Below are positions 13,875-47,089 of a stretch of DNA of 64,000 bases, one piece after another. The position numbers and the translations under genes are program-made. The notes below the pieces were generated by a model that searched no databases, had not been told where the DNA came from, and saw only the letters and a list, made by a program, of their open reading frames with translations. Within the stretch, counting starts at the first letter, position 1; each line of letters begins with the position of its first letter. This DNA comes from Trypanosoma brucei. Lineage: Eukaryota. Location of the stretch: positions 1,504,001 to 1,568,000 of the forward strand of contig CP000069.1 in NCBI GenBank assembly GCA_000002445.1, given 5' to 3'.

Positions 13875-16013
13875 CTAGATAGCGGAATATCCTGTTGGTA
13901 TTGTTGGCCCTATCGCTGCATGTTGCGGGTTGCACCATCGGCACTGTGGAGGCACACTCGGGTTGATCTTTCGCAACATCCATCCATAGTGTCTTGAAGA
14001 CACAACCCGAAAGCGTGCCCGTGCCGTTTCTTCTTCCCTCGTCAGTTCTTCTTTATGTTTTGTTGGAAAGTGGTTGCCCGTGATACCAAACCTATGAGTG
14101 TTCTCATGGACTTCTTCCGACCTAAGCACTCGCTTCGCATAAGCAATGATGTCGGGGATCCATGTGTCTCGCAACTGTGGTAAATCTGCGGCCTTTTTGG
14201 CCATTTCATCGCAAACCTCATTCCGTTTCATGCCACAATGGCCAAACACAAATTGCAGTCGGATACACACCTTTCTTCTCTGAACTTGAAGCAGAAGCCT
14301 CCATAGTCGTCTTAGAATTGGGTCCGTTACGGCTAGGGGGCCTGTCTGCAGTGCTGTTAACATTGACAGCGAGTCAGAGAAGATGGACAACCTGCTCGGT
14401 GTGCTTCTGTATGCCGGAAGCCATTTCAGCAGCCTTTGCAGTCCTATCTCTAATGCTACGCATTCCGCTCTGTAACTGCATGAGAGTTCCCCTGCTCCAG
14501 TTTTGGGTGCACAAATCAGCGTGTTGCTTCTGTAGAGCAGGGCAGCTGCTCCGGACTTCTCACCGAGGGACATGGGTCCATCAGTCCACAATTCGTAGTG
14601 CTCTCGCCGCGGTGGCTCCTTCCCCCTCCGTGCAAAATGCCGTTCAATCCACTTTTCGGAAGCCTCCCTTTTGACATCGTCAGGGTCATCAGCGCACACA
14701 GGCTTTATCTGCGTGTGAAATATCGGTCGGCAGCTGTGGCGGAGCGTCGATGTCTCTAGTGGGTGCTCGCGTGGCTCAATGTGGAGGTGGGGATAGGACC
14801 GCATGATGCGGGAATGTAGGACTCTGACTGGATGTTTGCTGTGGTATACTTCTTCAGCACTGCGCCGTAAACATCCGCCTCGTGACTCACACATCAGCAT
14901 GAATTTCATGCTGCGCACAAGAGTGGTCGTCTTGAGTGGCAGGAGGTTTGCTTCCAGCAGAGAGTTCTCTTTGAGCTTCCCATGTTGTATGCCGGCTATG
15001 ATGCGACTGGCTTTGTGTTGTGCTGCTGCAAGGAGGTCGCGACTTCGTTCCGAAGCGTCCCAGTACCATACCTCAATGCCATACATGGTGTGTGCCTGTA
15101 CGAGTGCTAGATAAAAAGCTCTCAGTACTTGTCTTCTTGGCTCCCATGTAGAAGCTGAGATGGCTGCTATCTGCAGTAGTCTAAAATCCATCTTGCGTCT
15201 CGTTTCTGCAGCATGTGTTGCCATCCCCTGCAGACACTGGAATGTTACTCCTAGAAGCTTCGGTGTCCTGCCAGCTCCTATTCTTTTGCCGTCCAGTTGT
15301 AATGTAAGGGGGTGGCGCTCTATACACCCGAAGAGTGTGCACATTGTTTTCGCTACATTGACAGACATGAAGTACTCTTTTGACCACTGTAACACCACGG
15401 TTAGGCCGCATTGTAGTGTGTGGTTGATGGCATCCCTCTCTGTGTGCCTCGCAAGTAGCGTCAGGTTGTCTGCAAAGAATCCGTGCTGCAGTAACGGCAC
15501 TTCTGCAAGGCATTGGCTCAACGAGTTCATGACAATAATGAACATGATTGGACCAAGGACAGTTCCTTGTGGCACTCCTCGCTCAAATGTTCTGCTTCTG
15601 GAGAGCTTCTCCTTGAATCTCACTCTGCCAGTTCGGTTACTCAGAAATGATACGCACCACTTCACAATGTGGGGTGATACCTTCATTCTGTGCATTTCCC
15701 TCGCAATTTTGTCGTGGTCTACTGTATCAAATGCCTTCTCGTAGTCGACGAATACAGCACCCGTACGATATTGGTGCGTGGGGCGGCAGAGGGCAGCGCG
15801 GACGTGCAGGAGTTGTTCGAGCGTTGAGCATCCGGGGCGAAAGCCTGATTGCTGCGGCGTCAGCTGGGACTCAACAGTGTCTCTAAGCCTCGCGGCAATT
15901 ATGCGTTCCATGACTTTGCAGAGACAGCTCGTGAGCGTCACAGGCCTGTAAGAATCGAGGTCCTCCGCCTTTTTCCGGCCTTCAGGATGGGGATGATAAC
16001 ACCAGTCTTCCAT
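13875..16013 (-). CDS. ingi reverse transcriptase - RNase H ORF segment (712 aa, uninterrupted up to the truncation point)
   Basis: RT motifs are present (e.g. FVDYEKAFDTVDHDKIAREM..., FADNLTLLARH as the YXDD-like region). RNase H follows (ELWTDGPMSLGEKSGAAALLYRSNTL...). The ORF ends a few codons past the point where ingi homology stops. Confidence 0.85.
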   Translation of the reverse strand: MEDWCYHPHPEGRKKAEDLDSYRPVTLTSCLCKVMERIIAARLRDTVESQLTPQQSGFRPGCSTLEQLLHVRAALCRPTHQYRTGAVFVDYEKAFDTVDHDKIAREMHRMKVSPHIVKWCVSFLSNRTGRVRFKEKLSRSRTFERGVPQGTVLGPIMFIIVMNSLSQCLAEVPLLQHGFFADNLTLLARHTERDAINHTLQCGLTVVLQWSKEYFMSVNVAKTMCTLFGCIERHPLTLQLDGKRIGAGRTPKLLGVTFQCLQGMATHAAETRRKMDFRLLQIAAISASTWEPRRQVLRAFYLALVQAHTMYGIEVWYWDASERSRDLLAAAQHKASRIIAGIQHGKLKENSLLEANLLPLKTTTLVRSMKFMLMCESRGGCLRRSAEEVYHSKHPVRVLHSRIMRSYPHLHIEPREHPLETSTLRHSCRPIFHTQIKPVCADDPDDVKREASEKWIERHFARRGKEPPRREHYELWTDGPMSLGEKSGAAALLYRSNTLICAPKTGAGELSCSYRAECVALEIGLQRLLKWLPAYRSTPSRLSIFSDSLSMLTALQTGPLAVTDPILRRLWRLLLQVQRRKVCIRLQFVFGHCGMKRNEVCDEMAKKAADLPQLRDTWIPDIIAYAKRVLRSEEVHENTHRFGITGNHFPTKHKEELTREEETARARFRVVSSRHYGWMLRKINPSVPPQCRWCNPQHAAIGPTIPTGYSAI

Positions 16014-17661
16014 GCAGGCGGCACGACTCCCGTTCGTAGGCTCTCATTGAATAGCCTCACAACAACATTCAGCGCTGTTCTGCCGAGATGTTGCAGTGCC
16101 TCGTTGTATAAGCAATCAGGTCCGGCTGCGGATCCACTAGGTAGCAGTTTGATCGATCTCCGTAGTTCAGCCATCGTGATGGGACTGAACTCACTCGCTA
16201 TCGTCTTTATTGGTGCCGGTGGGTGTGAGTCGGGGTGCCTTCTTGCGCGGGAAGAGTACAGTTTACTGAACCTCTCAGCTTGACGGTAGTCCGTGATGGC
16301 CGCGTTATCAACAAGTACAGCCGGTGTGGTTAGTGGTCGTGGCGCATATACCTTCTTGACAATGTGCCAACTGCAGCGGTCTGACACCGCAAGTCTGGAG
16401 CATAGCGTGCTCCATCTCTTCTTTGTGGTACGGTCCAGGATCTGCTTACGCGTGGCTACCAACTTTTCCCTTCGGTGGGAGGGTCCGCATCCAGCGATCT
16501 CTTCATCGAGTTTCGCGAGCTCAGGTGTCCAATGTGGTGGCGTTGCTCTGCAGCCACGGGGGACGGAGACCTTCGTCGCAATGCGGATGGCGGAGCTCAA
16601 TTTCTGTTCCAGGGTGTTGACATTCTTCTCTCTACCAATTTTCCTGCAGAGCTCGTCAACCTTGAGACGGAAATTCCTCCAGTCAGCTTTTAGCCATGCG
16701 TACATGGGCTTTCGAAGCCGCGGGCAGCTCAGTGCATCTGTGTCGTCTCCAAAGATAACGTCGAAAAATATGTGATGGTGATCGCTATCGGGAGAATACA
16801 GCGATGTCCACGTGTACACTGTGCAATTCCTTGACAGTGTCACATCAGGGGTGGACTCCCCGTGGTGGCGCGCGTACCTGGTGCACTCACCAGTGTTGCA
16901 GACCAGAAACTGGTTGTCAATGCACCACTGTGTGAGGGTTTCACCCTTGGTATTTGGTGGGCTCGCGCGATCCCATGCCAACGCGTGTGCGTTAGCGTCT
17001 GCACCGATGAGCTGGGCACCGTCAGTCGTCAGAAGCGTATCTAGGTCAGTTGCCGTGAAGGTGTGTTTTGGTGGGATGTATGCCGACGTGACAGTCAGCG
17101 CCGTTCCACGTGCAAGGTGAATTGTTGCATGCACTTGTTCAATGCGACCAACAACGGCCATACCGGTCTCGACTGGTATGTCCTCTCACTAGTATTGATA
17201 CACCACCTCCTTTGCAGTTACGAGCTATTCCGTGATGTTGGTAGCCAGCAACGCTAAAGCAAGCCGCCTCTCCAGGCGTCATCCTTGTCTCGCTCAACAG
17301 ACAAAAGGCGATCCGCTCATCAACAAGGGTTTTGTGGAGTGCTAATCTCTTTCCTTGAGATAGTCCGGCGCAGTTCCACTGCATCCCGTGAAACGACAGG
17401 CAGGGATTCTCTTCCACATCACCGGACAGCAGCATCTTAGTGCGGATGATATACTGCTGATGGCACGCTGGCACGTGCTCAGGGACCGACAAATGAAAAA
17501 CGGTGTCCCAGCAAGACGCTGCTGATCCCTGTGCTGTATGATGCCGTAGCCGGAGCACAGCAGTGTTCCCTATGAAAGGAACGCTGCTGGCTCTTGGCTT
17601 CCCCCGATGATACGGGGTACTGGACCCTGGCACCACGTTGAGGTGGCCGGCATCGCCAGGG
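13892..17661 (-). mobile_element. ingi: ingi non-LTR retrotransposon, copy 1; 5' end intact, 3'-truncated (about 3.77 kb of about 5.25 kb)
   Basis: The 5' end (reverse complement at 17600-17661) reads GATGCCGGCCACCTCAACGTGGTGCCAGGGTCCAGTACCCCGTATCATCGGGGGAAGCCAAGAGCCAGCAG. Collinear and about 97-98% identical to the copy at 41740-46988. Homology stops abruptly at about 13892, after ...QHAAIGPTI in the protein. The zinc-finger region and 3' RIME half are absent. Confidence 0.9.
15938..17161 (-). CDS. ingi ORF segment (N-terminal region, 407 aa; follows the APE-like endonuclease segment present in the overlapping ORF 17139..17750)
   Basis: 407-aa ORF that is near-identical to the ORF at 42239..43462. 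The overlapping ORF 17139..17750(-) carries FHGMQWNCAGLSQGKRLALHKTLVDERIAFCLLSETRM, which is endonuclease-like. Confidence 0.8.
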   Translation of the reverse strand: MAVVGRIEQVHATIHLARGTALTVTSAYIPPKHTFTATDLDTLLTTDGAQLIGADANAHALAWDRASPPNTKGETLTQWCIDNQFLVCNTGECTRYARHHGESTPDVTLSRNCTVYTWTSLYSPDSDHHHIFFDVIFGDDTDALSCPRLRKPMYAWLKADWRNFRLKVDELCRKIGREKNVNTLEQKLSSAIRIATKVSVPRGCRATPPHWTPELAKLDEEIAGCGPSHRREKLVATRKQILDRTTKKRWSTLCSRLAVSDRCSWHIVKKVYAPRPLTTPAVLVDNAAITDYRQAERFSKLYSSRARRHPDSHPPAPIKTIASEFSPITMAELRRSIKLLPSGSAAGPDCLYNEALQHLGRTALNVVVRLFNESLRTGVVPPAWKTGVIIPILKAGKRRRTSILTGL

Positions 17662-18159
17662 TACTCACTTGATCTCAACCCTCCGCATTTAAGTCGGCCA
17701 CCATATTTCAAACTATATGTTACACCATTTCTTACGCAGCATCTATTCACTTATATTTGACATAGGAAGCACAAACCACCCCGTATTATTTCTTTCTGTG
17801 CCGCTTTGAGCTTTTGCGTGTCCATTTGTTTCTTTCTGTATCTTCTTCCCTATTTTTGTCAACTGCATCACTCGCTTTGAGTAACACAGAGACTCTATTT
17901 GACATGTAACAACTAATTCTGTCTCTAACCACTATATTTCTTCACCTTCTCAATGTGCATCATGGTACTCATCACCATGTTTATGTACGAAAATGTTCGT
18001 ATTCCCTATTCTTTTTCTTTTGTATCTCTTATTTTCCTTCAATAACATCAAACGTGCTCACAGTCTGTCTTATTACTTCTTCTACTCACTCATTTACTCA
18101 AATTATGCCATTGCAATTATTTTAAACTCCTTATTTTGGGGGTTATTTCAGCTGGCAGC

Positions 18160-18290
18160 CCTCTTATTTTAATATTCGTATACACACTCACAACACTATC
18201 CTAGTATTATCATTATTGGCATTTCTATATTATTATTAACACTACTTCTACTATAGCCCTAACTGATAGCGACAGAATAACGAAATAATC
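18160..18290 (-). repeat. 70-bp repeat (about 1-1.5 copies)
   Basis: cctcttattttaatattcgtatacacactcacaacactatcc ... tattattattaacactac. Confidence 0.8.
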
Positions 18291-18589
18291 AAAATTATTG
18301 TACTAATCATTTTTGACGCCCTTTCATCCTACTACGTTATGTCCACATGCCACTATTATACACATTTTAGTATAAGTTTAACTATTTTTCTCACTTTTAA
18401 AAGGTTTTTAAAAACTGTTAAAATATAGAAATTTTTGTCAATTTCTATCAAATTCTTTCAAAATATCAGCGTGTCATTGTATTTTATAAAATTCATGACG
18501 TTCGATAAAATTGAGCATATATCCTTATAGTTCTACAAAAACCCACAAAAAAGCAGTAATCAGGGCAATTTTTTTTTTTATCTAGAAGA

Positions 18590-19914
18590 AAACTAGTAGA
18601 GCGGTACTTGCCTTCCATCCATCCAAAAACAGCTTCTTTCTGGCGGAATGTCACCTTTTACTGGTCCTTTGGCTTCCTTACTTAATGTGCACTTTTCTTC
18701 TCATTATTTGATTCGGCGTTCCACTTGCATGGCGGTTTACAATCTGTTTCCTTGTCTAACTTATTGCACTCTGCTTCTTTGGAGTCGATTGTTTCTTGGG
18801 TTTGGCGCTTGGGATGTTTGATAGTTTCTGCTCCATGTGCTACGGTTATGGTGGCTATGTCCAGAGTGTCGCATAACTGCCACGCTTGAACCTCTGCTGC
18901 TTTCAGTTGGGCATGCATTTTGGCTAGCTCGGTTCTTATGGTATATGCCTTTTTGAGTTCTTTCGTTGCTTGGAGCATGTTTTCGACCCATTTTACTTTG
19001 TGGAATGTTCCTGTTCCCACTGCAGCCATGTAATCAACACAAGTGGCTGAGATGGTGCCACCTAGGCCGTGCCGCCCGCTGTTGTCGTTGTCTGTGAAGG
19101 CTTTGTTGACGAGTGAGGATTCTACTTGGGTTACCGCCGCCATGAGTAGCTCTAGCGTGACAGTTTTTGCGTCGGTGGTGGGCTTAAATTTTGTTACAAT
19201 GGCCTTATACGCGCTGACTCCAGCGGCCGCGTCGCTTCCTGTTCCATAGTTGGCTCTGTTCTCGCCTTCTACGCAGATTCCGTTGCTTGTGCTTGCCGTG
19301 CCGCAAACACATGCAAGCGCTTTGGCTAGATTTTGCGCCGCCGGTTTTACCCTGCCGCCGCTGTTGCATGCGTTGTCTCCGGTGTCGAAAGTCTGTTCGG
19401 CTGCTGTGTTAGCCGCCGCGTCGCCGAAAACCGCTGCTTTTCATAATTTTTTGGCATTTTATTTTAAGTTTTGAAACTCCTTTTGTTGGCCGGCTGCTTG
19501 CTCTGCTGTAACCGCCGTTGAGTTGTACAGCCTTTCTAAAGCAGTGTGTGCTGCCCGCTTCCCTGGGCTTTCCGGAGGCCTTTTGTAAATTTCCGATTTG
19601 TCACTGTTCGTTTCGGTTTTTATTGTATCTTTGATTGCTGTAAATTCTGTGTCGGTTGTGAAGATGCCAAAAGTTTTATTATTGTAGTGTTCGTCTGGTA
19701 TTGTTGCCGCGTACAGTGCCCTCACAGCTGTCGGTACCTCGCCATTCGCATCCTGGGTATTGAATTCCGCCGCGTCGATGCTGCCTGTTGCTGCCTGATA
19801 TGCTGCACAAAGAGCTTCGTACTGTTACGCATTTTCTCGCTTCGAGTGTGACACTGAAGTCAAAGCTGCTAGTGCGGTTAGTAGACTTGCTATTAGTGGC
19901 CGCATTGCCTATAA
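18590..19914 (-). pseudogene. VSG: VSG pseudogene (B-type, in-frame stops, degenerate GPI signal)
   Basis: Reverse-complement translation starts MRPLIASLLTALAALTSVSHS (signal peptide) at about 19914. It contains LACVCGTASTSNGICVEG. ORFs 19459..19725(-) and 18682..19143(-) are separated by stops. The C-terminal domain reads ...CNKLDKETDCKPPCKWNAESNNEKKSAH*. The tail is a shifted degenerate ...KKLFLDGWKASTALLVFF. Confidence 0.8.
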
Positions 19915-20469
19915 GTTAGTAAATTTATGGTTTTGTTTATGTTGAAATGCGTAACGTTTTGTGCAATTATAGTGGCTTGTGAGTAAGTTTGAATGTCACA
20001 GAAACCTTATCGGTTTGTGGGGTACTTTAAGACTTTAAGGCTAAAACATTAATTTTAATTAGAAATTACCGTGGAAGGTGAAGTTTCGTGATCAAACATC
20101 TTTGAAGTACCTTCGGAATCACATTTTATAAGTCTTAAACAAATACCCTTCTTTAAAAGCGTAAATACAAATTTTGTCATACGTGAAATTAAATTTTTTT
20201 CAACCTCTCGTATAAGCTCAAATTTTTCTTAACTCTATCGTACTAAATTTCCTCCTTTTAAAACACGCGTAAAAACTAAGATTTTTTACAATTAACTTCG
20301 TTTTCTCCTCTCATGCAATAGTGTACCATTGAAAAAATAAATGGCGCCTTTCAAATTTCATCACTATGCTGAATAGAAAAGAGTCTCTCCTCATAATCTA
20401 ATCCAATCATTCCTCACTTCAAAACAAATCTTTGTCAAACAGCTTCTTTTTGAGTTGCACTACAAATAA

Positions 20470-21060
20470 GAAATGGCTTGTAAATACTCTTATCTGACTG
20501 CCATTCCTCACTTCCCTTTAGTAACTCTCCAAAAGCATATTCAAATTTTCTTAAACTCCCATACTCTGGCTATTAAACCGCCAACACTAAGATACGGTTT
20601 TCCACTAGGAGGTGATTTTAGTAAATGGGGTAATTTTTTATCCTCTTCTTTTCTGTAGCCCACATTGAAAAACCAGTAACATCTCTGCATATGCTCCTTG
20701 TGATCTGAGTTCATAATCAGATTCAACTGAGGAGCATAACACTCTGATGTTGTCATGAACATAATAGGGGAAATATGCTTCTCTTTTACTATATCTTCTT
20801 CACCAAATCTATCTTCATTATCAGCGCTATTTTGTACAAAATATTCCACAGCATTTTTATACTTATTTCCATCACTAACAATAACAGCAGATCCATTTAC
20901 AGTTATTACAATATCCTCATCACCTGCATTATGCATTTCCAAAAATTCCATAACTCATCTAGGCCTCTTAACATGACTATACAAACCTTCCATAGCAATT
21001 GTAATAATTTTAACATGGCTTATTTAGTACTTAATATTAGCCTGCACCATCCTTTAGTTG
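20470..21060 (-). repeat. Conserved VSG-upstream module, copy 1, carrying small ORF 20541..20951(-) (136 aa, acidic, ends ...GGLIARVWEFKKI)
   Basis: DNA and protein similarity to 24240-25040 and 47590-48130. Shared protein motifs are VITVNGS/VIV.DG.KY, MNSDH.EHM.RC and IARVWEF(K/R)KF. Confidence 0.6.
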
Positions 21061-22029
21061 CATGAGTTTGAACCACAAAAACAAACACTCTGGAATTCTT
21101 AGGCTTTTCATCTGTAATATTTACTTCTTTATAATGTTTAATATATGTTGAGCTTAAACACGCAAAATGTAATAGTAGTGATAATAATAAAATCGAAAGT
21201 TACTACATTTTATTCCCTAACCTATATTTAAAATTTTGAAAGAGATATAATAAAAAATTTAAAAAAGAGTAAGTTTCATCACTAAGCTTTTTGGTTAATG
21301 AAAACGTGTTTACGTGTATGAGTAAGTAATGCCTTGATATTGTGATTATATAGCTTCTGAAATGTGCCTATTTAGTGCATTAATTTAATCTTTTGGCGTG
21401 CATTAAAGATTCCTGTTTTTAGTAGTTAGCCGCGGCAACATACAGTGCAGTTCTTCCATGCACAGTCCTTCTCTATGAATTTATCTGGTAATTACAAGTA
21501 GCAGGCTGAACTGATAGGGACAGAAATAATAATAATTTTACAACCCTTCTGCGCAACTCCTCTCAACCATCTAATTTAGGCATTATCCTCTAACCAACAT
21601 GGATTTATGAGCCACCGATACTCGATTCTACAATTTTCTTCGTTGTGGCACATATTCATTTTTGTGCCAAATGTGCAGCACAATCACATCTTCTGCCGTT
21701 TACTTTGTGCCAAACTCGTGAGCATTTCGTTGCAAAACTCTCTCTTTTATTTACTTTTTTACGTTCTGTTGCTACTCCTGCGAATTACGTTGATAATTCA
21801 TTTTGCCTGCTCACGGAACTCTGATTATCGCCTACTTTTGGCTTCATCACGTTCCTTTGTATAATCATGAACATAAACATATTTCTGTTTGAAACTGTAT
21901 ATTCCACAACCCTTTCTTCCTTTTTTATTTTTCTCTTACAAACTTTCTCACTTAATAAGTTACTTCCATTGCACCTTTGCAATTATTTAGGTGCTTCCAT
22001 TCTTCCTCTTCATATATTATTCACCAGCA

Positions 22030-22125
22030 ATCTTATTATAATACTCGTATATGCACACTCACAACACTCCTCCATCATTATTATTATCATTATCATTATA
22101 AACGTAACTAATATGTATAAAATAA
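22030..22125 (-). repeat. 70-bp repeat (about 1 copy)
   Basis: cttattataatactcgtatatgcacactcacaacactcc plus (ATT/ATC)n. Confidence 0.8.
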
Positions 22126-22268
22126 AGAATATAGTCTGAATTATAATATCTCTCATTTTTCATATCCTAAAACTCTACTACTTTACTCTCATAAGCCACT
22201 CTTACACAATTTTTTTATATTTTTTATTTTTTCAAAAATTTCAAAAATATTTATACTTTTATTAAAAA

Positions 22269-22284
22269 GTGTTAAAATATCTCA
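22269..22284 (-). promoter_or_regulatory. VSG 3'UTR 16-mer (1 mismatch)
   Basis: gtgttaaaatatctca. Confidence 0.65.
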
Positions 22285-22315
22285 AATGTTTAAAGGATTA
22301 GCGAATTCTCTCAAA

Positions 22316-37300: not shown

Positions 37301-37420
37301 ACATTTTCATACCCTATTATCACACTATACACGTGCGAACTACCACCATTTACCTTTTATAACAATTTCATATCTTTAAAATTTTAAAATATTCGACAAT
37401 GTGAAAGAATTTGACAAAAA

Positions 37421-37436
37421 GTGTTAAAATATACCA
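37421..37436 (-). promoter_or_regulatory. VSG 3'UTR 16-mer (1 mismatch)
   Basis: gtgttaaaatatacca. Confidence 0.65.
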
Positions 37437-37526
37437 TATTTCAGACGTTTCATAAAATTATCTCACAAAATCAAATTTTCACAAGAATAATAAAGTTAAG
37501 GAAAAATCCTTTGAAACATTAAAGTG

Positions 37527-38995
37527 TTATGCTAGAACCAAAAATTCAAGCAAAAGATGTGCTTTGATTACAGCAGAATCGGCACCTGTGGTGTTTGTAG
37601 TTTTACCATCATTTTCGTTTTTTTCAATTGTTTTTGCCTTATCGTCTGGAAAGCATTTTGGTGTTTTGCTACTATAAAATTTGCATCCAGCGTTCTTGCA
37701 GATGTTTTTCTCTGTGTGCTCCTTGCACTCTTCTTTGGAAGGAGTTTTTTTGGTGGTTTCTGGTTTAGATGAGCAAGATGTGGAGGACGCCACCGTCTTT
37801 TCTTCTTTTGCTGCGGCTTTCCCTTGCAAATAGACAAGAACCTTTGGTGCAGCTCCGTCTTCTACTATTTTGAGGAGAGATTTTCGACTTCTGTTGTTCC
37901 GTCTTGATATTTTACGTTGTTCTCTGTTAGCGGCTCCACGCAGCTAGTCTTGTGGCCACCTTCGTTCATTCCTAATAATTTTTTGAATGCTGTTTTTATG
38001 TCTTCTTCCTTTTGTATTGCGCCTTCTTTTGTGTACTTTCCTGTTGCAATTAAGTAATTGGTGTACGGAGTTGACAACGCCGTTTTCTATGATAGAGTTT
38101 CCGGATTCCAATTATCTGGGTCAGTCGGTGTTGGTGGCGCTGCCACTAGAAATTCACAGATGGCGTATGCTACTTTGTCGTTATCGCTTGCTGTTTTGGT
38201 CTCCGGTTGTTCCACTGTAGCACAGCCTTGTGTCCTGTCGTCTTTGGCGTACATGCTTGTCTGTTCTGCCGTTAGTCCTGAGTCAGCTGCCACAGATCCC
38301 AGGGTGACTTTCAAAGCATTGCTGCCTTCGCTGCCGCTGGTGTCGCATCGAGTTCCACCTGTAGCTGTGTCTACACTGCCCTCTGCTCCTTTTCCTTGGG
38401 CAGCCACTTGTTGCAGCCTCGGCGGTGTTGTCGACAGCTTTAGTAGCTTTATTTTTGTTGCGGCCTCCCAGTTGAACGCTGTTGATTCTACGCCTGTGTC
38501 TGTGGCCTTTCTCAGGTCGCAGGTGTCGCGTGTTGATCCTGATTGTGTTAGCGTGAATGTGCATTTCGCATTGTATGTCGCCTAGCCGGAGGCGTACGCT
38601 GCACCTCCTGCTGTTAGCGATGGGCTACGGTACAAAGCTTCTATATAGCCTATCCTTTCTGAAAGTATCCGCTGTGCCCTTTGGGAAGCTTCCTGTCGCC
38701 GCTTGAGCTCTTCCGCGTGCTTTTTATGTTGTATCATAGCGTAAGCGCTGAGTGTGCCGTAGCCCGGTTTCAGTTGCTTGTCGGTCGTCTGAACCGCCGC
38801 CAGTTGCCATGCTGTTGCATAGGTTTGTGGCTTGTGTATTAGGTTCCTCCCTGTTTCCGCCTGCTTTGCTATGTATTTTGAAATAGCCGCTAAGTATATA
38901 ATCTCAGAACACCGGTTGTTGATGTTGTTTCTTGCTGCTTCGTCTTTGCCACTGAAATTAGTAACAGCTGCCGCGAAAAACAAGCAAGTAAGCAC
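37527..38995 (-). pseudogene. VSG: VSG pseudogene (multiple frameshifts)
   Basis: ORF 38582..38995(-) starts MLTCLFFAAAVTNFSG (signal peptide). ORFs 38087..38407(-) and 37865..38077(-) are mid segments. ORF 37527..37829(-) is the C-terminal domain, with ...CKNAGCKFYSSKTPKCFPDDKAKTIEKNENDGKTTNTTGADSAVIKAHLLLEFLVLA*, a GPI signal. Confidence 0.8.
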
Positions 38996-40939
38996 ATTTT
39001 TTTTTATATCTCCATTTTCACCGCTTCTACACGGTATTGAAGCAGCTTATAGTTACGGAGTTAGTTTTTTTCCCTGCTTTTCTTTGAGGCGTCGGCCGCC
39101 AACTAGGTTGATTTTGTCCAAGGCAAAAAAATAGAAGAACGGAAAAACTATTGCCTCAGTGCAGCAGCCGCTTTACTTCGTTGAGTTGGTTCGGAGGCTT
39201 TCTTTTTTGGTCCTTTTGCAAGCTCTGTGATCGATTTATTCCGGCACAATTAACTGTTTTACATGTCCCCTCCTTGTCCTCGTTCACTTCAATGCCTCTA
39301 CATATCTCTAGGGTAAATATCTCGGTTTTTTTGTCAGGAGACCATCACCGTCACAACTTGCGAGTTTTATATTTTTATTACCATGTCTGTACGCACAAGT
39401 ACCGTTACTAAATGCACGGGAATTGTTTACTGCTGTTGCGTATTGTTAGGTTTTTTCGCTGGAATTGGCAACGGCTCACACAGTCTGCTTTGCAACTTCC
39501 TTTACATAGCTGCCATCAGACCTCTCGCTAAATTAGCGTGTTGTTTTCTTATTGGCATTATTGGAACCTTACCCATGTATGACAGTCTTCGCGAAGTTGT
39601 GACAGCTCCCGTGAATGTAACTCTTTTAATACGACGATTTTTAACAAGTGCAATCTAGCGCCCGCTGTTAGTTCTATTCCTCTCCGCTACTTATTTCCTT
39701 TTTTCTTACTTAACGATAAAGAAAGCTGTAGGGTTCCAAATTACATACGGGAAACGGATTCCCTTTTCTGTTTTCTTACTGCTGAATTCGATCCACTTGT
39801 ACTTTTCTAACTCAACTCGTTTCCGACATGCCAAATCTGCCATTCAGAGTTGCGTTTAACATTTTACATGCTAAAACAGAAAATAACTAAATTTGTGTGG
39901 CCATACAATAACTTTACCAATTTGGTTGCGTCTCAAAACAACTATGCCGCACTATTTATATAGTATCTCATGATACGATAAAGCTTTTTCTACCTTTTAT
40001 TTATTTTTTGACGCATTCTCCTGCTTTCTGCTAATCCTTCTAAACTTTTAGGCGGTCTCAACACTTTCCGCAATATTGGGGCAATCATCAGTTAGTTGAT
40101 TTGCTTATTCTTACTCATGCTTTTGGCTATGCAGTACAGAGAACTCTTGTATCAATTACACGTTTTTTCGATGAACTTTTTTTGTCGTACCAGTAAAAAA
40201 AATAGTGGAGCCTTGCCATTAATTGTCTCTGCTTAATAATGTCCTGTTACTGTTTATTTCTGTGATATTTTAAGTAATATTTGCTTTATTCGTTTTTCAA
40301 GCACGGTAATTCATCGGTAGTCATAGTTTTAAAATCATAGAACAAATAAAATTATATTGTTTACCATAAGTATTAGATATTATTACTATATCTTAGGATA
40401 AAAAATTTTACGTTACTTTACAGTCACACAGTCCCTTCCCCATGCTTTTTCATCTACTACTGCTGTTTCTTCGCAACGAAAATAAGAATTCGCTATCAGA
40501 ATAATAACCAGAAATGTCACCGCTATTGCAGATGTAGCACCTATCCATTTTTTAGTAAAATACTGAGCATCATATCTTCCTTCTGTTGTCTTTATTCCTT
40601 ACGCTGTAATGCATATACTTCTGTTTCATTACATGCATTGTTTCCTTCTTGTCCACTTTCTGTCAGAACTTCTTCCAGTACAGTAGAAACTCGGTTTAGA
40701 TTTCAAACTATGCTGTTTCTCTTCTTATTGTCATCCATCATCTCCTCGCGTATGATTGCCATCTTCATTTTTGTGTTTCAAGCTGCACATATTCCATCTA
40801 TGTCTATCTTTTTATTTCTAAGTTACTCTTAATAAAATCATTGGTGTGCTCTCTGCCTTACTCTCTGTCACTTACTTTAATTTCACCATTTAAAATATTT
40901 TTAGTGCTTCCGTTTTTTTAATGCATTTGGTGACCACTA

Positions 40940-41040
40940 TTTTCATTATATTATTAGTACATACACATTCACAATACTTTCCTACTACAACTTTTTCTGT
41001 TATAACTCAAACTTATATTCACATAATTAGAAAAAAATTA
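40940..41040 (-). repeat. 70-bp repeat (about 1 copy, diverged)
   Basis: cattatattattagtacatacacattcacaatacttt. Confidence 0.7.
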
Positions 41041-41279
41041 TAATGACACTCATCTTTAATACTCTATCACCTTCCTGATTTGCACCCCTACGCACTTTTC
41101 ATACACATTTTACTATATCTATATTTTCAAAATAAATATTCATTATTTTTCAAATGCTTGACAAAAATTATTAAAATATATCACCTTTTAGTATATTTTT
41201 TAAAAACAGGAAATTTTATAAATTTAAACCAAAATATTTTAGAGTACTTTAAATATAATAGCAAAAATGCGAGCCAAAG

Positions 41280-41745
41280 AAAATCTTTGTTAATGACAAC
41301 AAAATTTCTTCCTGTGGTTTTTTTTCATCCTTTCTTCCTGTTGCTTCGTTCGTTACTTCTGCTCCTGCTTGTTGGTCCACCCAACTCATTGTGCACTTTT
41401 TCTTGGTTTTCTTTGCTTCTGAGTTCCATTCGCAGGGTTCTTGGTAATATCGTTATTTATCTTTGGCGTCGCAGTCTTTTTCCGTTTGTTCTCGCTTTTC
41501 TTTGCTAGAGGTAGGTACTTGGTCGCCAAGTGACTGCATTTTCTGCACTGGTAATTCTTCCTCCAGGCTAAAAATCAATACCTCCCTTTTTTCTGCTCCA
41601 ATTTATTGCCTTGTTTGTTGTCCTATGACCGCTGCTTTTAATTTGGTTGCCTCTGCCTGCTCCAGTGCTTTTCCTCTTCCCATTGACTTTTTTACGCAGT
41701 CTACGTCTTCGAATGCCGTCTGTTCTTTCTATCTGATACCCTGGA
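41280..41745 (-). pseudogene. VSG: VSG 3' fragment (C-terminal about 150 aa plus GPI signal), 5' part displaced by ingi insertion
   Basis: Reverse-complement translation gives ...SLEEELPVQKMQSLGDQVPTSSKEKREQTEKDCDAKDK... then ...CEWNSEAKKTKKKC... and a tail TTGRNFVVINKDFLWLAFLLL. A 3'UTR follows with 16-mer-like ttattaaaatatatca at 41168-41183. The coding sequence abuts the ingi 5' end at about 41745. Confidence 0.7.
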
Positions 41746-42238
41746 GATGCCGGCCACCTCAATGTGGTGCCAGGGTCCAGTACCCCGTATCATCGGGGGA
41801 AGCCAAGAGCCAGCAGCGTTCCTTTCATAGGGAACACTGCTGTGCTCCGGCTACGGCATCATACAGCACAGGGATCAGCAGCGTCTTGCTGGGACATCGT
41901 TTTTCATTTGTCGGTCCCTGAGCACGTGCCAGCGTGCCATCAGCAGTATATCATCCGCACTAAGATGCTGCTGTCCGGTGATGTGGAAGAGAATCCCTGC
42001 CTGTCGTTTCACGGGATGCAGTGGAACTGCGCCGGGCTATCTCAAGGAAAGAGATTAGCACTCCACAAAACCCTTGTTGATGAGCGGATCGCCTTTTGTC
42101 TGTTGAGCGAGACAAGGATGACGCCTGGAGAGGCGGCTTGCTTTAGCGTTGCTGGCTACCAACATCACGGAATAGCTCGTAACTGCAAAGGATGAGGTGT
42201 ATCAATACTAGTGAGAGGACATACCAGTCGAGACCGGT

Positions 42239-43462
42239 ATGGCCGTTGTTGGTCGCATTGAAAAAGTGCATGCAACAATTCACCTTGCACGTGGAACGGC
42301 GCTGACTGTCACGTCGGCATACATCCCACCAAAACACACCTTCACGGCAACTGACCTAGATACGCTTCTGACGACTGACGGTGCCCAGCTCATCGGTGCA
42401 GACGCTAACGCACACGCGTTGGCATGGGATCGCGCGAGCCCACCAAATACCAAGGGTGAAACCCTCACACAGTGGTGCATTGACAACCAGTTTCTGGTCT
42501 GCAACACTGGTGAGTGCACCAGGTACGAGCGCCACCACGGGGAGTCCACCCCTGATGTGACACTGTCAAGGAATTGCACAGTGTACACGTGGACATCGCT
42601 GTATTCTCCCGATAGCGATCACCATCACATATTTTTCGACGTTATCTTTGGAGACGACACAGATGCACTGAGCTGCCCGCGGCTTCGAAAGCCCATGTAC
42701 GCATGGCTAAAAGCTGACTGGAGGAATTTCCGTCTCAAGGTTGACGACCTCTGCAGGAAAATTGGTAGAGAGAAGAATGTCAACACCCTGGAACAGATAT
42801 TGAGCTCCGACATCTGCATTGCGACGAAGGTCTCCGTCCCCCGTGGCTGCAGAGCAACGCCACCACATTGGACACCTGAGCTCGCGAAACTCGATGAAGA
42901 GATCGCTGGATGCGGACCCTCCCACCGAAGGGAAAAGTTGGTAGCCACGCGTAAGCAGATCCTGGACCGTACCACAAAGAAGAGATGGAGCACGCTATGC
43001 TCCAGACTTGCGGTGTCAGACCGCTGCAGTTGGCACATTGTCAAGAAGGTATATGCGCCACGACCACTAACCACACCGGCTGTACTTGTTGATAACGCGG
43101 CCATCACGGACTACCGTCAAGCTGAGAGGTTCAGTAAACTGTACTCTTCCCGCGCAAGAAGGCACCCCGACTCACACCCACCGGCACCAATAAAGACGAT
43201 AGCGAGTGAGTTCAGTCCCATCACGATGGCTGAACTACGGAGATCGATCAAACTGCTACCGAGTGGATCCGCAGCCGGACCTGATTGCTTATACAACGAG
43301 GCACTGCAACATCTCGGCAGAACAGCGCTGAATGTTGTTGTGAGGCTATTCAATGAGAGCCTACGAACGGGAGTCGTGCCGCCTGCATGGAAGACTGGTG
43401 TTATCATCCCCATCCTGAAGGCCGGAAAAAGGCGGAGGACCTCGATTCTTACAGGCCTGTGA
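42239..43462 (+). CDS. ingi ORF segment (407 aa; about 98% identical to 15938..17161(-))
   Basis: MAVVGRIEKVHATIHLARGTALTVTSAYIPPKHTF... is near-identical to copy 1. Confidence 0.8.
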   Translation: MAVVGRIEKVHATIHLARGTALTVTSAYIPPKHTFTATDLDTLLTTDGAQLIGADANAHALAWDRASPPNTKGETLTQWCIDNQFLVCNTGECTRYERHHGESTPDVTLSRNCTVYTWTSLYSPDSDHHHIFFDVIFGDDTDALSCPRLRKPMYAWLKADWRNFRLKVDDLCRKIGREKNVNTLEQILSSDICIATKVSVPRGCRATPPHWTPELAKLDEEIAGCGPSHRREKLVATRKQILDRTTKKRWSTLCSRLAVSDRCSWHIVKKVYAPRPLTTPAVLVDNAAITDYRQAERFSKLYSSRARRHPDSHPPAPIKTIASEFSPITMAELRRSIKLLPSGSAAGPDCLYNEALQHLGRTALNVVVRLFNESLRTGVVPPAWKTGVIIPILKAGKRRRTSILTGL

Positions 43463-44496
43463 CGCTCACGAGCTGTCTCTGCAAAGTCATGGAGCGCATA
43501 TTTGCCACGAGGCTTAGAGACACTGTTGAGTCCCAGCTGACGCCGCAGCAATCAGGCTTTCGCCCCGGATGCTCAACGCTCGAACAACTCCTGCACGTCC
43601 GCGCTGCCCTCTGCCGCCCCACGCACCAATATCGTACGGGTGCTGTATTCGTCGACTACGAGAAGGCATTTGATACAGTAGACCACGACAAAATTGCGAG
43701 GGAAATGCACAGAATGAAGGTATCACCCCACATTGTGAAGTGGTGCGTATCATTTCTGAGTAACCGAACTGGCAGAGTGAGATTCAAGGAGAAGCTTTCC
43801 AGAAGCAGAACATTTGAGCGAGGAGTGCCACAGGGAACTGTCCTTGGCCCAATCATGTTCATTATTGTCATGAACTCGTTGAACCAGCGCCTTGCAGAAG
43901 TGCCGTTACTGCAGCACGGATTCTTTGCAGACAACCTGACGCTACTTGCGAGGCACACAGAGAGGGATGCCATCAACCACACACTACAATGCGGCCTAAC
44001 CGTGGTGTTACAGTGGCCAAAAGAGTACTTCATGTCTGTCAACGTAGCGAAAACGAAGTGCACACTCTTCGGGTTTATAGAGCGCCACCCCCTTACATTA
44101 CAACTGGACGGCAAAAGAATAGGAGCTGGCAGGACACCGAAGCTTCTAGGAGTAACATTCCAGTGTCTGCAGGGGATGGCAACACATGCTGCAGAAACGA
44201 GACGCAAGATGGATTTTAGACTACTGCAGATAGCAGCCATCTCAGCTTCTACATGGGAGCCAAGAAGACAAGTACTGAGAGCTTTTTATCTAGCACTCGT
44301 ACAGGCACACACCATGTATGGCATTGAGGTATGGTACTGGGACGCTTCGGAACGAAGTCGCGACCTCCTTGCAGCAGCACAACACAAAGCCAGTCGCATC
44401 ATAGCTGGCATACCGCATGGGACGCGCAAAGAGGACTCTCTGCTGGAAGCAAACCTCCTGCCACTCAAGACGACCGCTCTTGTGCGCAGCACGTAA
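43387..44496 (+). CDS. ingi reverse transcriptase segment (369 aa, terminated by stop, unlike copy 1)
   Basis: MEDWCYHPHPEGRKKAEDLDSYRPVTLTSCLCKVMERIFATRLRDT... with RT motifs. Confidence 0.85.
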   Translation: MEDWCYHPHPEGRKKAEDLDSYRPVTLTSCLCKVMERIFATRLRDTVESQLTPQQSGFRPGCSTLEQLLHVRAALCRPTHQYRTGAVFVDYEKAFDTVDHDKIAREMHRMKVSPHIVKWCVSFLSNRTGRVRFKEKLSRSRTFERGVPQGTVLGPIMFIIVMNSLNQRLAEVPLLQHGFFADNLTLLARHTERDAINHTLQCGLTVVLQWPKEYFMSVNVAKTKCTLFGFIERHPLTLQLDGKRIGAGRTPKLLGVTFQCLQGMATHAAETRRKMDFRLLQIAAISASTWEPRRQVLRAFYLALVQAHTMYGIEVWYWDASERSRDLLAAAQHKASRIIAGIPHGTRKEDSLLEANLLPLKTTALVRST

Positions 44497-44499
44497 TTC

Positions 44500-44904
44500 A
44501 TGCTGATGTGTGAGTCACGAGGCGGATGTTTGCGCCACAGTGCTGAGAAAGTATACCACAGCAAACACCCAGTCAGAGTCTTACATTCCCGCATCATGCG
44601 GTCCTATCCCCACCTCCACATTGAGCCACGCGAGCACCCACTAGAGACATCGACGCTCCGCCACAGTTGCCGACCGCTATTTCACACGCAGATAAAGCCC
44701 GTATGCGCTGATGACCCTGACGATGTCAAAAGGGAGGCTTCCGAAAAATGGATTGCACGGCATTTTGCACGGAGGGGGAAGGAGCCACCGCGGCGAGAGC
44801 ACTACGAATTGTGGACTGATGGATCCGTGTCCCTCGGTGAGAAGTCCGGAGCAGCTGCCCTACTCTATAGAAACAACACGCTGATTTGTGCACCCAAGAC
44901 CTGA
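44500..44904 (+). CDS. ingi RNase H-like segment
   Basis: ...HYELWTDGSVSLGEKSGAAALLYRNNTLICAPKT. Confidence 0.7.
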   Translation: MLMCESRGGCLRHSAEKVYHSKHPVRVLHSRIMRSYPHLHIEPREHPLETSTLRHSCRPLFHTQIKPVCADDPDDVKREASEKWIARHFARRGKEPPRREHYELWTDGSVSLGEKSGAAALLYRNNTLICAPKT

Positions 44905-45009
44905 GCAGAGGAACTCTCATGCAGTTACAGAGCGGAATGCGTAGCATTAGAGATAGGACTGCAACGGCTGCTAAAATGGCTTCCGGTATACAGAAGCACA
45001 CCGAGCAGG

Positions 45010-46182
45010 TTGTCCATCTTCTCTGACTCGCTGTCAATGTTAACAGCACTGCAGACAGGCCCCCTAGCCGTAACGGACCCAATTCTAAGACGACTATGGA
45101 GGCTTCTGCTTCAAGTTCAGAGAAGGAAGATACGTATCCGACTGCAATTTGTGTTTGCCCATTGTGGCGTGAAACGGAATGAGGTTTGCGATGAAATGGC
45201 CAAAAAGGCCGCTGACTTACCACAGTTGCGAGACACATGGATCCCCGACATCATTGCTTATGCGAAGCGAGTGCTTAGATCGGAAGAAGTCCATGAGAAC
45301 ACTCATAGGTTTGGTATCACGGGCAACCACTTTCCAACAAAACATAAAGAAGAACTGACGAGGGAAGAAGAAACGGCACGGGCACGCTTTCGGGTTGGGT
45401 CTTCAAGACACTATGGATGGATGTTGCGAAAGATCAACCCGAGTGTGCCTCCACAGTGCCGATGGTGCAACCCGCAACATGCAGCGATAGGACCAACAAT
45501 ACAAACAGCCCCACCTGTTGCGACACGCACTCTTCAGAGAACCTCCGAATCAAACAAATGTACGGAATGTGATGCCACATACCAATGCCGCTCGAGTGCT
45601 GTAACGCACATGGTAAACAAACACGGCTTTGTGCGAGCTGATGCCCTCCGGAGGATCAAATACGGCGATGCAACACCCGCAGTGGATATCCCCCCGGAGC
45701 CCCCTCCAGTGGTGGCGATCGTTCCTCTACCATCGAGCACACGAGTCCCGATGAGACCGCAGGTGCTTCATTGTACCCTCTGTGCCTCCAAATTCGCAGT
45801 GCCAGGCCGACTATTACACCACCTTAGAACAATACATGGCATAGGCAGCGGTAGTTGCCGCGTGAAAAGGGGGCGAGAGAACGAAGACTCAGTGCAAGGA
45901 GATGGTAGCGTCCCAGCAGCGCCAGCCTCTCAGGATACACGGAAGCTGCCGTTTCAATGTGACTTGTGCGAGGCGAGCTTCGGTACACACTCTTCCCTGT
46001 CACTACACAAGAAATTCAAACATAAGAGCATAGTGACGGAGGACGGTACCGTGGTGTTGGTGCAATTCCCTCGTAAGCGTGCCCGTGAGGGAAACGTTGA
46101 CGTCCCGGGGAAGGGCGAGGTGCAGTGTGGTGTGTGCCAAAAAAGTGCTCAGTTGCGGGGCCTCCCTCATCCGACACTGTAA
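45010..46182 (+). CDS. ingi C-terminal segment with C2H2 zinc fingers
   Basis: CTECDATYQCRSSAVTHMVNKHGF, HCTLCASKFAVPGRLLHHLRTIHG and FQCDLCEASFGTHSSLSLHKKFKHKS. Confidence 0.8.
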   Translation: MSIFSDSLSMLTALQTGPLAVTDPILRRLWRLLLQVQRRKIRIRLQFVFAHCGVKRNEVCDEMAKKAADLPQLRDTWIPDIIAYAKRVLRSEEVHENTHRFGITGNHFPTKHKEELTREEETARARFRVGSSRHYGWMLRKINPSVPPQCRWCNPQHAAIGPTIQTAPPVATRTLQRTSESNKCTECDATYQCRSSAVTHMVNKHGFVRADALRRIKYGDATPAVDIPPEPPPVVAIVPLPSSTRVPMRPQVLHCTLCASKFAVPGRLLHHLRTIHGIGSGSCRVKRGRENEDSVQGDGSVPAAPASQDTRKLPFQCDLCEASFGTHSSLSLHKKFKHKSIVTEDGTVVLVQFPRKRAREGNVDVPGKGEVQCGVCQKSAQLRGLPHPTL

Positions 46183-47089
46183 GGCTTTCCACAAAGGTGA
46201 GGGAGTCGAGCTTAAATGCAGCAAAATCACAAAATTGGGTGCCACTGATTCCCCGCATACAAACACATCCATGTTGGTGTGCCAGACAGGCGGAAGGCAG
46301 TGTGCTAGCAAAACTGGCCTCACCCTACATCAAAAGAAGATGCACGGTATGAGAGCAGAGCGCACTGTTACGAGCCAACGCGGCGACTGCAAAGAAACGT
46401 CGCTGCACCTGATGAGCTGTCCAGGTTTGAAGGAGTTACGTGTCAGGTTTGCGGTAGAGGGTGTGTGTGTACAAGATGTATGTTTCTCTAAAAGGCTGGC
46501 GCAATTTCTCATTGCGGTTGAACGGAGCCGGCCGCAGGTGAAGTCCTCACCTAAGGTAAAAGTCATACAACCCACTCTCCCTTCTGCAACTTCCCCCTTA
46601 TTTCTGAGAGTGGAGCTAGCAGGAAAAGCACCGGACGCATGAATAGTCCAGACACCCTCAGAGACAGAGGGGGTATGCAATCAACAAGCAACAGAAACAG
46701 AAAGAGGGAGAGAGAATAATAAACGAATAACAAAAATCAAAACAAAAGGATTGCTAATTGACATCTTCGGGAGAGTCTGGGGAGGGGTTCTTTTCGCCCC
46801 ATCTGCTGTAATGTGTTCAACTGCGGAGCTACAACAAAAATTATAGAGGGTGTGTTAGGATGAATAAAAAAGGGAGACTCTGCCACAGTCGCCAGACCGA
46901 TAGCATCTCAGGGCTCTACGGTGATGGCTGATGGCCGCGCCAGTGGGGGGAAACTCTCACGAAGACACGAAGAAAATTCAAAAAAAAACGAACACACTCT
47001 TCTTCGCACCCTTGTTTGGTGGTTAAGTAGAGTGCTTGTCGAACATTGTACAAGGGTAGATCCCAGGGGGCGGAGAGTATCTAGCTTAC

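What the first reader, a model, noticed from the sequence alone, without database searches (positions are those of the whole stretch)
13892..46988. Two about 97-98% identical ingi copies in inverted orientation bracket a 24-kb block of six VSG cassettes
ingi copy 1 (13892-17661, minus) and copy 2 (41740-46988, plus) are collinear over about 3.7 kb with only scattered substitutions. For example, the 407-aa ORFs differ at a handful of residues. Inverted repeats of this length and identity are substrates for homologous recombination that would invert the intervening segment (18-41.7 kb). All VSGs inside and outside the block are still on the minus strand, so no inversion is fixed in this haplotype. 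The pair could still mark a structurally polymorphic region or a recombination hot spot in the array.
Basis: seen in the sequence. Interest (0 to 1): 0.6.

Follow-up and report, generated by a model that had tools for sequence, protein, structure and literature searches.

The report
Two dead ingi retroposons, inverted
Two broken copies of the common trypanosome jumping gene ingi sit in opposite orientation around seven silent surface-antigen gene cassettes on Trypanosoma brucei TREU927 chromosome 6; this is an ordinary, already catalogued arrangement, and nothing shows that the block between them has ever flipped.

Summary
Window 13892-17663 (minus) and 41737-45508 (plus) align without gaps over 3,772 nt, with 73 mismatches (98.06% identity). 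Both are Tbingi non-LTR retroposons.

The window is T. b. brucei TREU927 chromosome 6, at about 104-168 kb. Both copies are already listed in a published ingi catalogue.

The 98% identity is not special. Five ingi from T. b. equiperdum and the two window copies are 95.4-98.7% identical pairwise, and copy 1 is 97.9-98.0% identical to two unrelated equiperdum copies.

The pair does share four ORF-killing lesions and 25 substitutions that the comparators lack. It is also mosaic: 1.0% divergent over the 5' 2.65 kb but 5.7% divergent in a 600-nt patch. That points to one defective sub-lineage plus ectopic gene conversion.

Copy 1 has an intact 5' end but is broken at element nt 3,770. Copy 2 is full length but has no target-site duplication and cuts a VSG. 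Both were therefore rearranged after insertion.

The block holds seven 70-bp-repeat-delimited cassettes plus a VSG 3' remnant, not six. Every VSG, 70-bp repeat and 3'-UTR 16-mer lies on the minus strand, so no inversion is fixed here.

The copies are adequate substrates for homologous recombination, but the hot-spot and polymorphism ideas remain untested. Interest is low.

The parts
13892..17661 (-). ingi copy 1. The 5' end is complete (79-nt signature, starts CCCTGG at 17661). The 3' end is truncated at element nt ~3,770, with no poly(A) and no TSD. The ORF is defective.
   Evidence: Pfam finds Exo_endo_phos_2, RVT_1 and RNase_H. tblastn with the intact 1,656-aa ingi ORF P0087 covers aa 1-1254 across four frame changes. 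Lesions are listed.
41739..46988 (+). ingi copy 2. Full length at 5,250 nt with an A9 tail. The ORF is defective: it carries the four shared lesions plus private stops and frameshifts. No 12-bp TSD.
   Evidence: It is 95.3-96.7% identical over nt 1-5250 to full-length T. b. equiperdum ingi. Lesions are and the TSD search.
17662..41738 (-). The 24,077-nt block between the two 5' ends. It holds seven minus-strand VSG cassettes plus a VSG 3' remnant. VSG segments lie at 18574-19824, 22319-23878, 26482-27900, 29138-30586, 31534-33115, 35037-36536 (the only intact one, = XP_845637.1) and 37440-39050. The 70-bp repeats lie at 22020, 26095, 28660, 31310, 34725, 37101 and 40935.
   Evidence: tblastn, Pfam, 70-bp repeat map, 16-mer matches, exact protein match.
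44389..44988 (+). Divergent patch within the repeat (the matching stretch in copy 1 is 14412-15011). It holds 34 of the 73 differences, which is 5.67% divergence.
   Evidence: Maximum chi-square scan with 0 of 300 permutations reaching the observed value. Binomial p = 2e-6 after correcting for family-wide rate variation. Nearest-neighbour switch shown.
41168..41738 (-). VSG 3' remnant (C-terminal coding fragment plus a 3'-UTR 16-mer with 2 mismatches), cut off by the 5' end of copy 2. No N-terminal half lies beyond copy 2's 3' end.
   Evidence: A 70-bp repeat follows at 40935-41070 at the usual spacing. Pfam did not confirm the fragment.
18156..18298 (-). 70-bp repeat of the cassette that copy 1 interrupts. 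Copy 1 lies 494 nt downstream of it and 1,456 nt upstream of VSG 10864-12435.
13880..13891 (-). Breakpoint flank of copy 1. Homology to ingi stops after ...CCAACAG and is followed by unrelated AT-rich cassette sequence.
   Evidence: comparing the two copies directly.

Best explanation
These are two separate insertions of the Tbingi non-LTR retroposon (ingi4 subclade) in a silent subtelomeric VSG array of T. b. brucei TREU927 chromosome 6.

Shown: both carry the ingi-clade 5' signature and the endonuclease, RT and RNase H coding content. Both are dead, and they share one nonsense codon and three frameshifts. Their flanks are unrelated right up to the first base of the element.

Inferred: both descend from one already defective ingi sub-lineage. 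They were copied either by retrotransposition using enzymes supplied in trans by intact ingi, or by conversion of one copy by the other over the 5' 2.65 kb.

After insertion, three things happened. A ~600-nt patch in one copy was overwritten by ectopic gene conversion from another ingi lineage. Copy 1 lost its last 1.48 kb through a deletion or recombination breakpoint inside a VSG cassette. Copy 2 lost the target-site duplication, together with the upstream part of the VSG it interrupts.

The pair is a possible substrate for RAD51-dependent inversion of the 24-kb block. In this haplotype the block has the same orientation as its surroundings, and nothing indicates that the site is more recombinogenic than any other ingi pair.
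For: Identity and anatomy.

Origin: VSG 35037-36536 is identical to XP_845637.1 of TREU927, on a 1,618,915-bp record. The 100-nt 5' flanks of both copies equal those listed for NC_007279 at 145809(p) and 121731(m) in the PMC4660242 supplement.

Family-typical identity: 21 pairwise values range from 95.41 to 98.67%. The window pair is 98.06%, copy 1 vs L005 is 97.96% and copy 1 vs L001 is 97.88%. TbRIME has a median divergence of 4% from its consensus (PMC3820030).

Shared sub-lineage: there are no indel differences between the two copies. Two private frameshifting deletions and 25 private shared substitutions are absent from the comparators. Four ORF lesions are shared.

Mosaic structure.

Independent flanks: homology ends within 3-6 nt of CCCTGG.

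Post-insertion damage: copy 2 has no TSD, while the control elements L005 and L001 show 12-13-nt TSDs. Copy 1's broken end has no poly(A).

Uniform orientation: and AT skew.

Literature: ingi/RIME recombine and cause rearrangements (PMC2854126), and ingi lie within VSG arrays (PMC3553974).
Against: All comparator ingi come from T. b. equiperdum or T. b. gambiense, not from TREU927. The 'private' shared lesions could therefore be common to many TREU927 ingi rather than marking a close relationship between these two copies.

I cannot separate trans-mobilisation of a dead master from inter-copy gene conversion.

The upstream ingi4 target motif matches only 7 of 10 positions for copy 1 and 3 of 10 for copy 2 (6 of 10 at a -2 offset), so insertion by the ingi endonuclease at these exact sites is not demonstrated.

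An even number of past inversions would leave the present orientation unchanged.
Confidence: 0.8

Rival explanations
1. One reading: the inverted pair drives recurrent inversion of the 24-kb VSG block, so the region is structurally polymorphic or a recombination hot spot.
For: The homology is sufficient: perfect blocks of 445, 330, 289, 264, 232 and 219 nt, against an HR plateau of ~200 bp. The mosaic tract shows that these elements do exchange sequence. Copy 2 lacks a TSD. ingi-mediated rearrangements are reported between subspecies.
Against: Every VSG, 70-bp repeat and 16-mer inside the block has the same orientation as those outside it, and the AT skew is the same. The TSD-swap signature expected after one inversion is absent: copy 2's 3' flank CGAACACACTCT does not match copy 1's 5' flank ATCAAGTGAGTA. 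Southern blots probed with ingi showed no rearrangements even in brca2-/- cells (PMC3553974). No second haplotype or strain could be examined.
Confidence: 0.1
2. The pair arose by a local DNA-level event (an inverted segmental duplication, or direct gene conversion of one copy by the other) rather than from two retrotranspositions out of a shared defective lineage.
For: The pair is 1.02% divergent over the 5' 2.65 kb, the second lowest of 21 pairs. There are no indel differences, four ORF lesions are shared and 25 shared substitutions are private to the pair.
Against: The flanks are unrelated immediately outside the element, which excludes a duplication larger than the element itself. The L001/L005 pair from different T. 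b. equiperdum chromosomes is just as close, at 0.94%. Element-limited gene conversion is not excluded.
Confidence: 0.25
3. Assembly artefact: the abrupt end of copy 1 at 13892, or the pairing itself, results from a misjoin or repeat collapse in the Sanger-era TREU927 assembly.
For: A non-LTR element with an intact 5' end and a 3' break lacking poly(A) cannot arise from target-primed reverse transcription alone. ingi are classic assembly-breaking repeats, and rearrangements in repeats are hard to resolve.
Against: The two copies differ at 73 positions, so they are not one collapsed sequence. With copy 1 removed, the 70-bp repeat to VSG distance is 1,950 nt, which is within the 560-2,220 nt range of the other cassettes. 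The break therefore sits in a coherent cassette.
Confidence: 0.05

Closest known systems
Tbingi / TbRIME (ingi4 subclade of the trypanosomatid ingi clade of non-LTR retrotransposons)
   Same: The 79-nt 5' signature is present. Copy 2 is 5.25 kb long with a poly(A) tail. The domain order is APE endonuclease, RT, RNase H, then a zinc-finger region. Both copies are 95-98% identical at the nucleotide level to T. b. equiperdum ingi, including one with the intact 1,656-aa ORF. The location, inside a subtelomeric VSG array, is also typical.
   Different: Both copies are non-functional. Copy 1 lacks the last 1.48 kb, including the 3' RIME half and the poly(A). Copy 2 lacks the 12-bp TSD. The 2A-like motif reads NPCL instead of NPGP.
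Large inverted repeats IR1-IR7 of TREU927 that produce siRNAs (Tschudi et al. 2012, PMC3447711)
   Same: They are kilobase-scale inverted repeats on a megabase chromosome of the same strain.
   Different: Those repeats are at least 99% identical, and the start/end spans listed for each locus are only about 3.6-12 kb. None is on chromosome 6. This pair is 98% identical with a 24-kb spacer and is made of a dispersed retroposon. siRNA output from this particular pair is unknown, although ingi as a class yields 52% of siRNAs.
Inversions mediated by inverted LINE or other dispersed repeats through non-allelic homologous recombination in other eukaryotes (general knowledge)
   Same: The geometry is the same: two highly similar elements in inverted orientation flank a unique segment.
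   Different: No inverted allele has been observed here, so this is a potential substrate only.

Membership tests
Tbingi (ingi4 subclade) | Conserved 76-79-nt 5' signature shared by all ingi-clade retroposons | tested here: met
   Both copies start CCCTGG(A/C)GATGCCGGCCACCTCAA(T/C)GTGGTGCCAGGGTCCAGTACC.... This start is the same as in four of the five T. b. equiperdum ingi (L001, L002, L003, L005). PMC3820030 describes the signature.
Tbingi (ingi4 subclade) | Element of about 5.25 kb ending in a poly(A) stretch | tested here: met
   Copy 2 spans 41739-46988, which is 5,250 nt plus an A9 tail. Copy 1 does not meet this feature: it is 3,770 nt with no poly(A).
Tbingi (ingi4 subclade) | Coding capacity for AP-endonuclease, reverse transcriptase and RNase H in one long ORF (1,657 aa) | tested here: not met
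   All three domains are present (Pfam), but the single ORF is broken in both copies. The shared lesions are TGG->TAG at aa 28, +2 at nt 208, -2 at nt 475 and -1 at nt 1688. Copy 2 has further private lesions. The copies are defective family members, not autonomous ones.
Tbingi (ingi4 subclade) | High nucleotide identity to bona fide ingi | tested here: met
   The copies are 95.3-96.7% identical over the full length, and 95.7-98.0% over the shared 3.77 kb, to five T. b. equiperdum ingi. One of these, L001, encodes the intact 1,656-aa ORF.
Tbingi (ingi4 subclade) | 12-bp target-site duplication | tested here: not met
   For copy 2, the 5' 12-mer TTCTATCTGATA does not match the 3' flank CGAACACACTCT, and no match with 2 or fewer mismatches lies nearby. 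Copy 1's 3' end is missing, so the feature cannot be assessed there. The controls L005 and L001 show clear TSDs.
Tbingi (ingi4 subclade) | Upstream target motif AxxxxxxxTxxxGTxGGxTxxx^xTxTxxTxxxxx | tested here: inconclusive
   Copy 1 matches 7 of 10 specified positions. Copy 2 matches 3 of 10, or 6 of 10 at a -2 offset. The motif is taken from PMC3820030.
Silent VSG cassette array | 70-bp repeat upstream, a VSG A- or B-type N-terminal domain plus C-terminal domain, and the conserved 3'-UTR 16-mer | tested here: met
   Pfam finds VSG_B, Trypan_glycop and Trypan_glycop_C. There are 16 clusters of 70-bp repeats, all on the minus strand. There are 10 minus-strand 16-mer matches where 0.11 are expected by chance.
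siRNA-producing large inverted repeats (Tschudi 2012) | Near-identical arms (at least 99%) and small-RNA production | not testable with these tools
   Identity here is 98.06%. The pair is not among the seven IRs listed for TREU927. No small-RNA data were available.

The most novel reading that the evidence does not exclude
The two inverted ingi copies are in ongoing sequence exchange: gene conversion keeps the 5' 2.65 kb at 1% divergence. Occasionally they also cross over, so trypanosome populations would carry both orientations of a seven-cassette VSG block. That would make ingi pairs a general source of structural polymorphism in the silent antigen archive.
Probability: 0.08. Interest if true: 0.45.

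Novelty: already known. Interest (0 to 1): 0.15.

Why it matters
The main value of this check is that it sets the finding aside. The window is part of the T. brucei TREU927 reference chromosome 6. ingi elements inside VSG arrays are textbook features, both copies are already in a published ingi catalogue, and their 98% identity is what any two ingi copies show.

Two small additions are new. The pair is a mosaic, consistent with ectopic gene conversion among ingi. Both copies also carry marks of rearrangement after insertion: copy 1 is broken at its 3' end and copy 2 lacks a target-site duplication. If long-read population data ever showed the 24-kb block in both orientations, it would be a concrete example of retroposon-mediated reshuffling of the VSG archive. 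Nothing here indicates that.

Tried and rejected
1. Finding the source contig or other strains' versions by exact protein look-up. Four look-ups with TREU927 VSGs returned nothing, so no comparison of block orientation across assemblies was possible. The closest non-TREU927 relative of the intact VSG is an 84%-identical Lister 427 VSG with no DNA context.

2. Exact look-up of the five ingi ORF fragments. None is in the collection, so I could not count how many other loci share the same frameshifts.

3. Rfam scan of the window. No family reached its gathering score, including HDV-like ribozymes at the ingi 5' ends.

4. TSD search and the TSD-swap test for a past inversion. Both were negative.

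5. Search for the missing 3' part of copy 1, or any other ingi-related coding sequence, elsewhere in the window. Sensitive blastn and tblastn found nothing outside the two copies.

6. The plus-strand 16-mer-like match at 13671-13686 as a possible sign of an inverted VSG next to copy 1's break. Rejected, because no plus-strand VSG similarity exists and about 0.1 chance matches are expected.

7. One literature query returned nothing relevant.

8. The PMC4660242 table contains duplicated rows with shifted coordinates. I used it only to match flanks, not to count ingi pairs.
Full report
**Observation.** The repeat finder reports a single long inverted pair in the window: 13892-17663 against 41737-45508, 3,772 nt, 98% complementary, with 24,073 nt between the arms. 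BLASTN gives 98.04% over 3,776 nt with E = 0. An ungapped alignment has 73 mismatches (98.065% identity), made up of 48 transitions and 25 transversions. The two 407-aa ORFs differ at six residues.

**What the elements are.** Pfam finds Exo_endo_phos_2, RVT_1 and RNase_H in the ORF fragments of both copies. Both begin with CCCTGG(A/C)GATGCCGGCCACCTCAA..., which is the 79-nt 5' signature of ingi-clade retroposons (PMC3820030). Copy 2 runs 5,250 nt to an A9 tail at 46988. A search with copy 1's 712-aa ORF found a 60-member cluster of T. brucei ingi proteins. This cluster includes an intact 1,656-aa ORF, P0087. I fetched the DNA of five full-length ingi from T. b. equiperdum and one partial copy from T. 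b. gambiense. Copy 2 is 95.3-96.7% identical to the five equiperdum elements along its whole length. Both window elements are therefore Tbingi.

**Where the window comes from.**
- The only intact VSG inside the block (35037-36536) is 100% identical to XP_845637.1 of T. b. brucei TREU927, which sits on a 1,618,915-bp record.
- The supplement of PMC4660242 lists ingi hits on NC_007279 (chromosome 6) at 145809 (plus) and 121731 (minus). Their 100-nt 5' flanks are identical to window 41640-41739 and to the reverse complement of 17662-17761.
- The listed spacing of 24,078 nt also matches.
- The window is therefore about chr6:104,070-168,070 of the reference genome, and both copies are already catalogued.

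**Surroundings.**
- tblastn with the window's own VSGs finds 15 VSG-like segments, all on the minus strand. Pfam confirms A- and B-type N-terminal domains and C-terminal domains.
- Canonical 70-bp repeats occur at 16 places, all on the minus strand.
- The VSG 3'-UTR 16-mer occurs 10 times on the minus strand, where 0.11 matches are expected by chance.
- Between the two ingi 5' ends lie seven cassettes bounded by 70-bp repeats (at 22020, 26095, 28660, 31310, 34725, 37101 and 40935). There is also a VSG 3' remnant at 41168-41738 that is cut off by copy 2's first base.
- Copy 1 lies 494 nt downstream of the 70-bp repeat at 18156-18298 and 1,456 nt upstream of VSG 10864-12435. It therefore sits inside one cassette.
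- AT skew has the same sign and size inside the block as outside it. No inversion is fixed in this sequence.

**Is 98% identity special?** No. Over the shared 3.77 kb, the 21 pairwise identities among the two window copies and the five T. b. equiperdum copies range from 95.41 to 98.67%. The window pair is second highest at 98.06%. Copy 1 is 97.96% identical to L005 and 97.88% to L001, which are unlinked elements from another subspecies, and L001 and L005 are 98.67% identical to each other. This fits the low divergence reported for active ingi-clade elements (PMC3820030).

**What is specific to the pair.**
- The two copies have no indel differences from each other, whereas each differs from the comparators at 6-11 gap columns. 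Two frameshifting deletions and 25 substitutions that the two copies share are absent from all five equiperdum copies.
- Measured against the intact ORF of L001, both copies carry the same four inactivating lesions: TGG->TAG at aa 28, +2 at nt 208, -2 at nt 475 and -1 at nt 1688. Copy 2 has further private stops and frameshifts.
- The ORF was therefore already dead before the two copies separated.
- Their flanks are unrelated within 3-6 nt of the element start. This excludes an inverted duplication larger than the element.
- Two routes remain, and I cannot tell them apart: retrotransposition of a defective master using enzymes supplied in trans, as RIME does, or gene conversion limited to the element.
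- One caveat applies. All comparators come from other subspecies, so the 'private' states may be widespread among TREU927 ingi.

**Mosaic structure.** The 73 differences are not evenly spread (chi-square p = 4.5e-6).
- A maximum chi-square scan isolates 44389-44988, which corresponds to 14412-15011 in copy 1.
- This patch holds 34 differences in 600 nt, or 5.67% divergence. The 5' 2,650 nt are 1.02% divergent and the last 520 nt are 2.31% divergent.
- None of 300 permutations reaches the observed statistic.
- After allowing for the family's own rate variation (21.7% of comparator differences fall in the patch), the binomial p is 2e-6.
- Outside the patch the two copies are each other's nearest relatives. 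Inside it, copy 1 is closer to L001 and L005 than to copy 2.
- This is the footprint of ectopic gene conversion among ingi copies, or of template switching. It agrees with the published statement that ingi and RIME recombine in trypanosome genomes (PMC2854126).

**Post-insertion damage.**
- Copy 1 has a perfect 5' end, but homology to ingi stops abruptly after element nt ~3,770 with no poly(A). Target-primed reverse transcription truncates elements at the 5' end, not the 3' end. The break must therefore be a later deletion or recombination junction.
- Copy 2 has no target-site duplication. The 12 nt before it (TTCTATCTGATA) do not recur after the A tail, where the sequence is CGAACACACTCT. The control elements L005 and L001 show 12-13-nt duplications.
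- Copy 2's 5' end abuts a VSG 3' remnant, and the rest of that VSG is missing beyond its 3' end. About 1 kb of target was therefore lost, at insertion or afterwards (inference).
- The TSD-swap pattern expected after a single inversion between the two copies is not seen.

**The recombination idea.** The substrate is adequate. Six perfectly matching blocks of 219-445 nt exist, and T. brucei homologous recombination rises linearly between 50 and 200 bp and then plateaus (PMC1904282). Adequacy is not evidence of use, however. Four points count against a special role for this pair:
- About 470 ingi/RIME 5' ends exist per genome (PMC12975129), and ingi are known to lie within VSG arrays (PMC3553974). 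Inverted neighbours tens of kb apart are therefore expected.
- One of the six loci I fetched (L001) also carries an inverted ingi fragment 1.66 kb from an intact element.
- Southern blots probed with ingi showed no rearrangements even in brca2-/- cells.
- A systematic survey of TREU927 for large inverted repeats listed seven, none of them on chromosome 6 (PMC3447711).

I could not examine any other assembly of this array, so structural polymorphism is neither shown nor excluded.

**Verdict.** This is an ordinary, already annotated feature of the reference genome. The only additions are the mosaic patch, the shared lesions and the signs of post-insertion rearrangement.

Noticed in passing
window 47105-47210 and 47227-47281 (+): Two tandem, degenerate copies of the 79-nt ingi-clade 5' signature lie about 100 nt after copy 2's poly(A). 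This looks like a SIDER/DIRE-type relic, so copy 2 sits next to an older retroposon remnant.
   Followed up: partly
window 20481-21091, 24464-25057, 47776-48122: A 350-600-nt segment is conserved at 77-80% identity in the regions upstream of three VSG cassettes. It has no Pfam hit and its nature is unknown.
   Followed up: no
window 41980-42012 (+) and 17388-17420 (-): Both ingi copies encode DVEENPCLSFHG where the intact ingi ORF (P0087) has the 2A-like DVEENPGPSLRG. Four shared substitutions destroy the NPGP motif.
   Followed up: partly
L001 9902-10971 (T. b. equiperdum CM010672.1): An intact ingi with a 1,656-aa ORF is followed 1.66 kb downstream by an inverted ingi 3' fragment at 94% identity. 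Inverted ingi neighbours therefore occur elsewhere too.
   Followed up: no
window 13671-13686 (+): This is the only plus-strand match to the VSG 3'-UTR 16-mer (2 mismatches), and it lies 205 nt from copy 1's broken end. There is no VSG-like coding sequence on the plus strand nearby, so I took it as a chance match.
   Followed up: partly
window 35037-36536 (-): This is the only intact VSG inside the block. It is annotated in TREU927 as 'VSG, atypical' (XP_845637.1), and its closest non-TREU927 relative is a Lister 427 VSG at 84% identity. The other six VSG segments inside the block look like pseudogenes or fragments.
   Followed up: partly
PMC4660242 supplementary file 1: The published ingi/RIME table lists many elements twice with shifted coordinates. 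For example, the same flank appears at NC_007279 89450 and at 121521. Counts taken from this table would be inflated.
   Followed up: no
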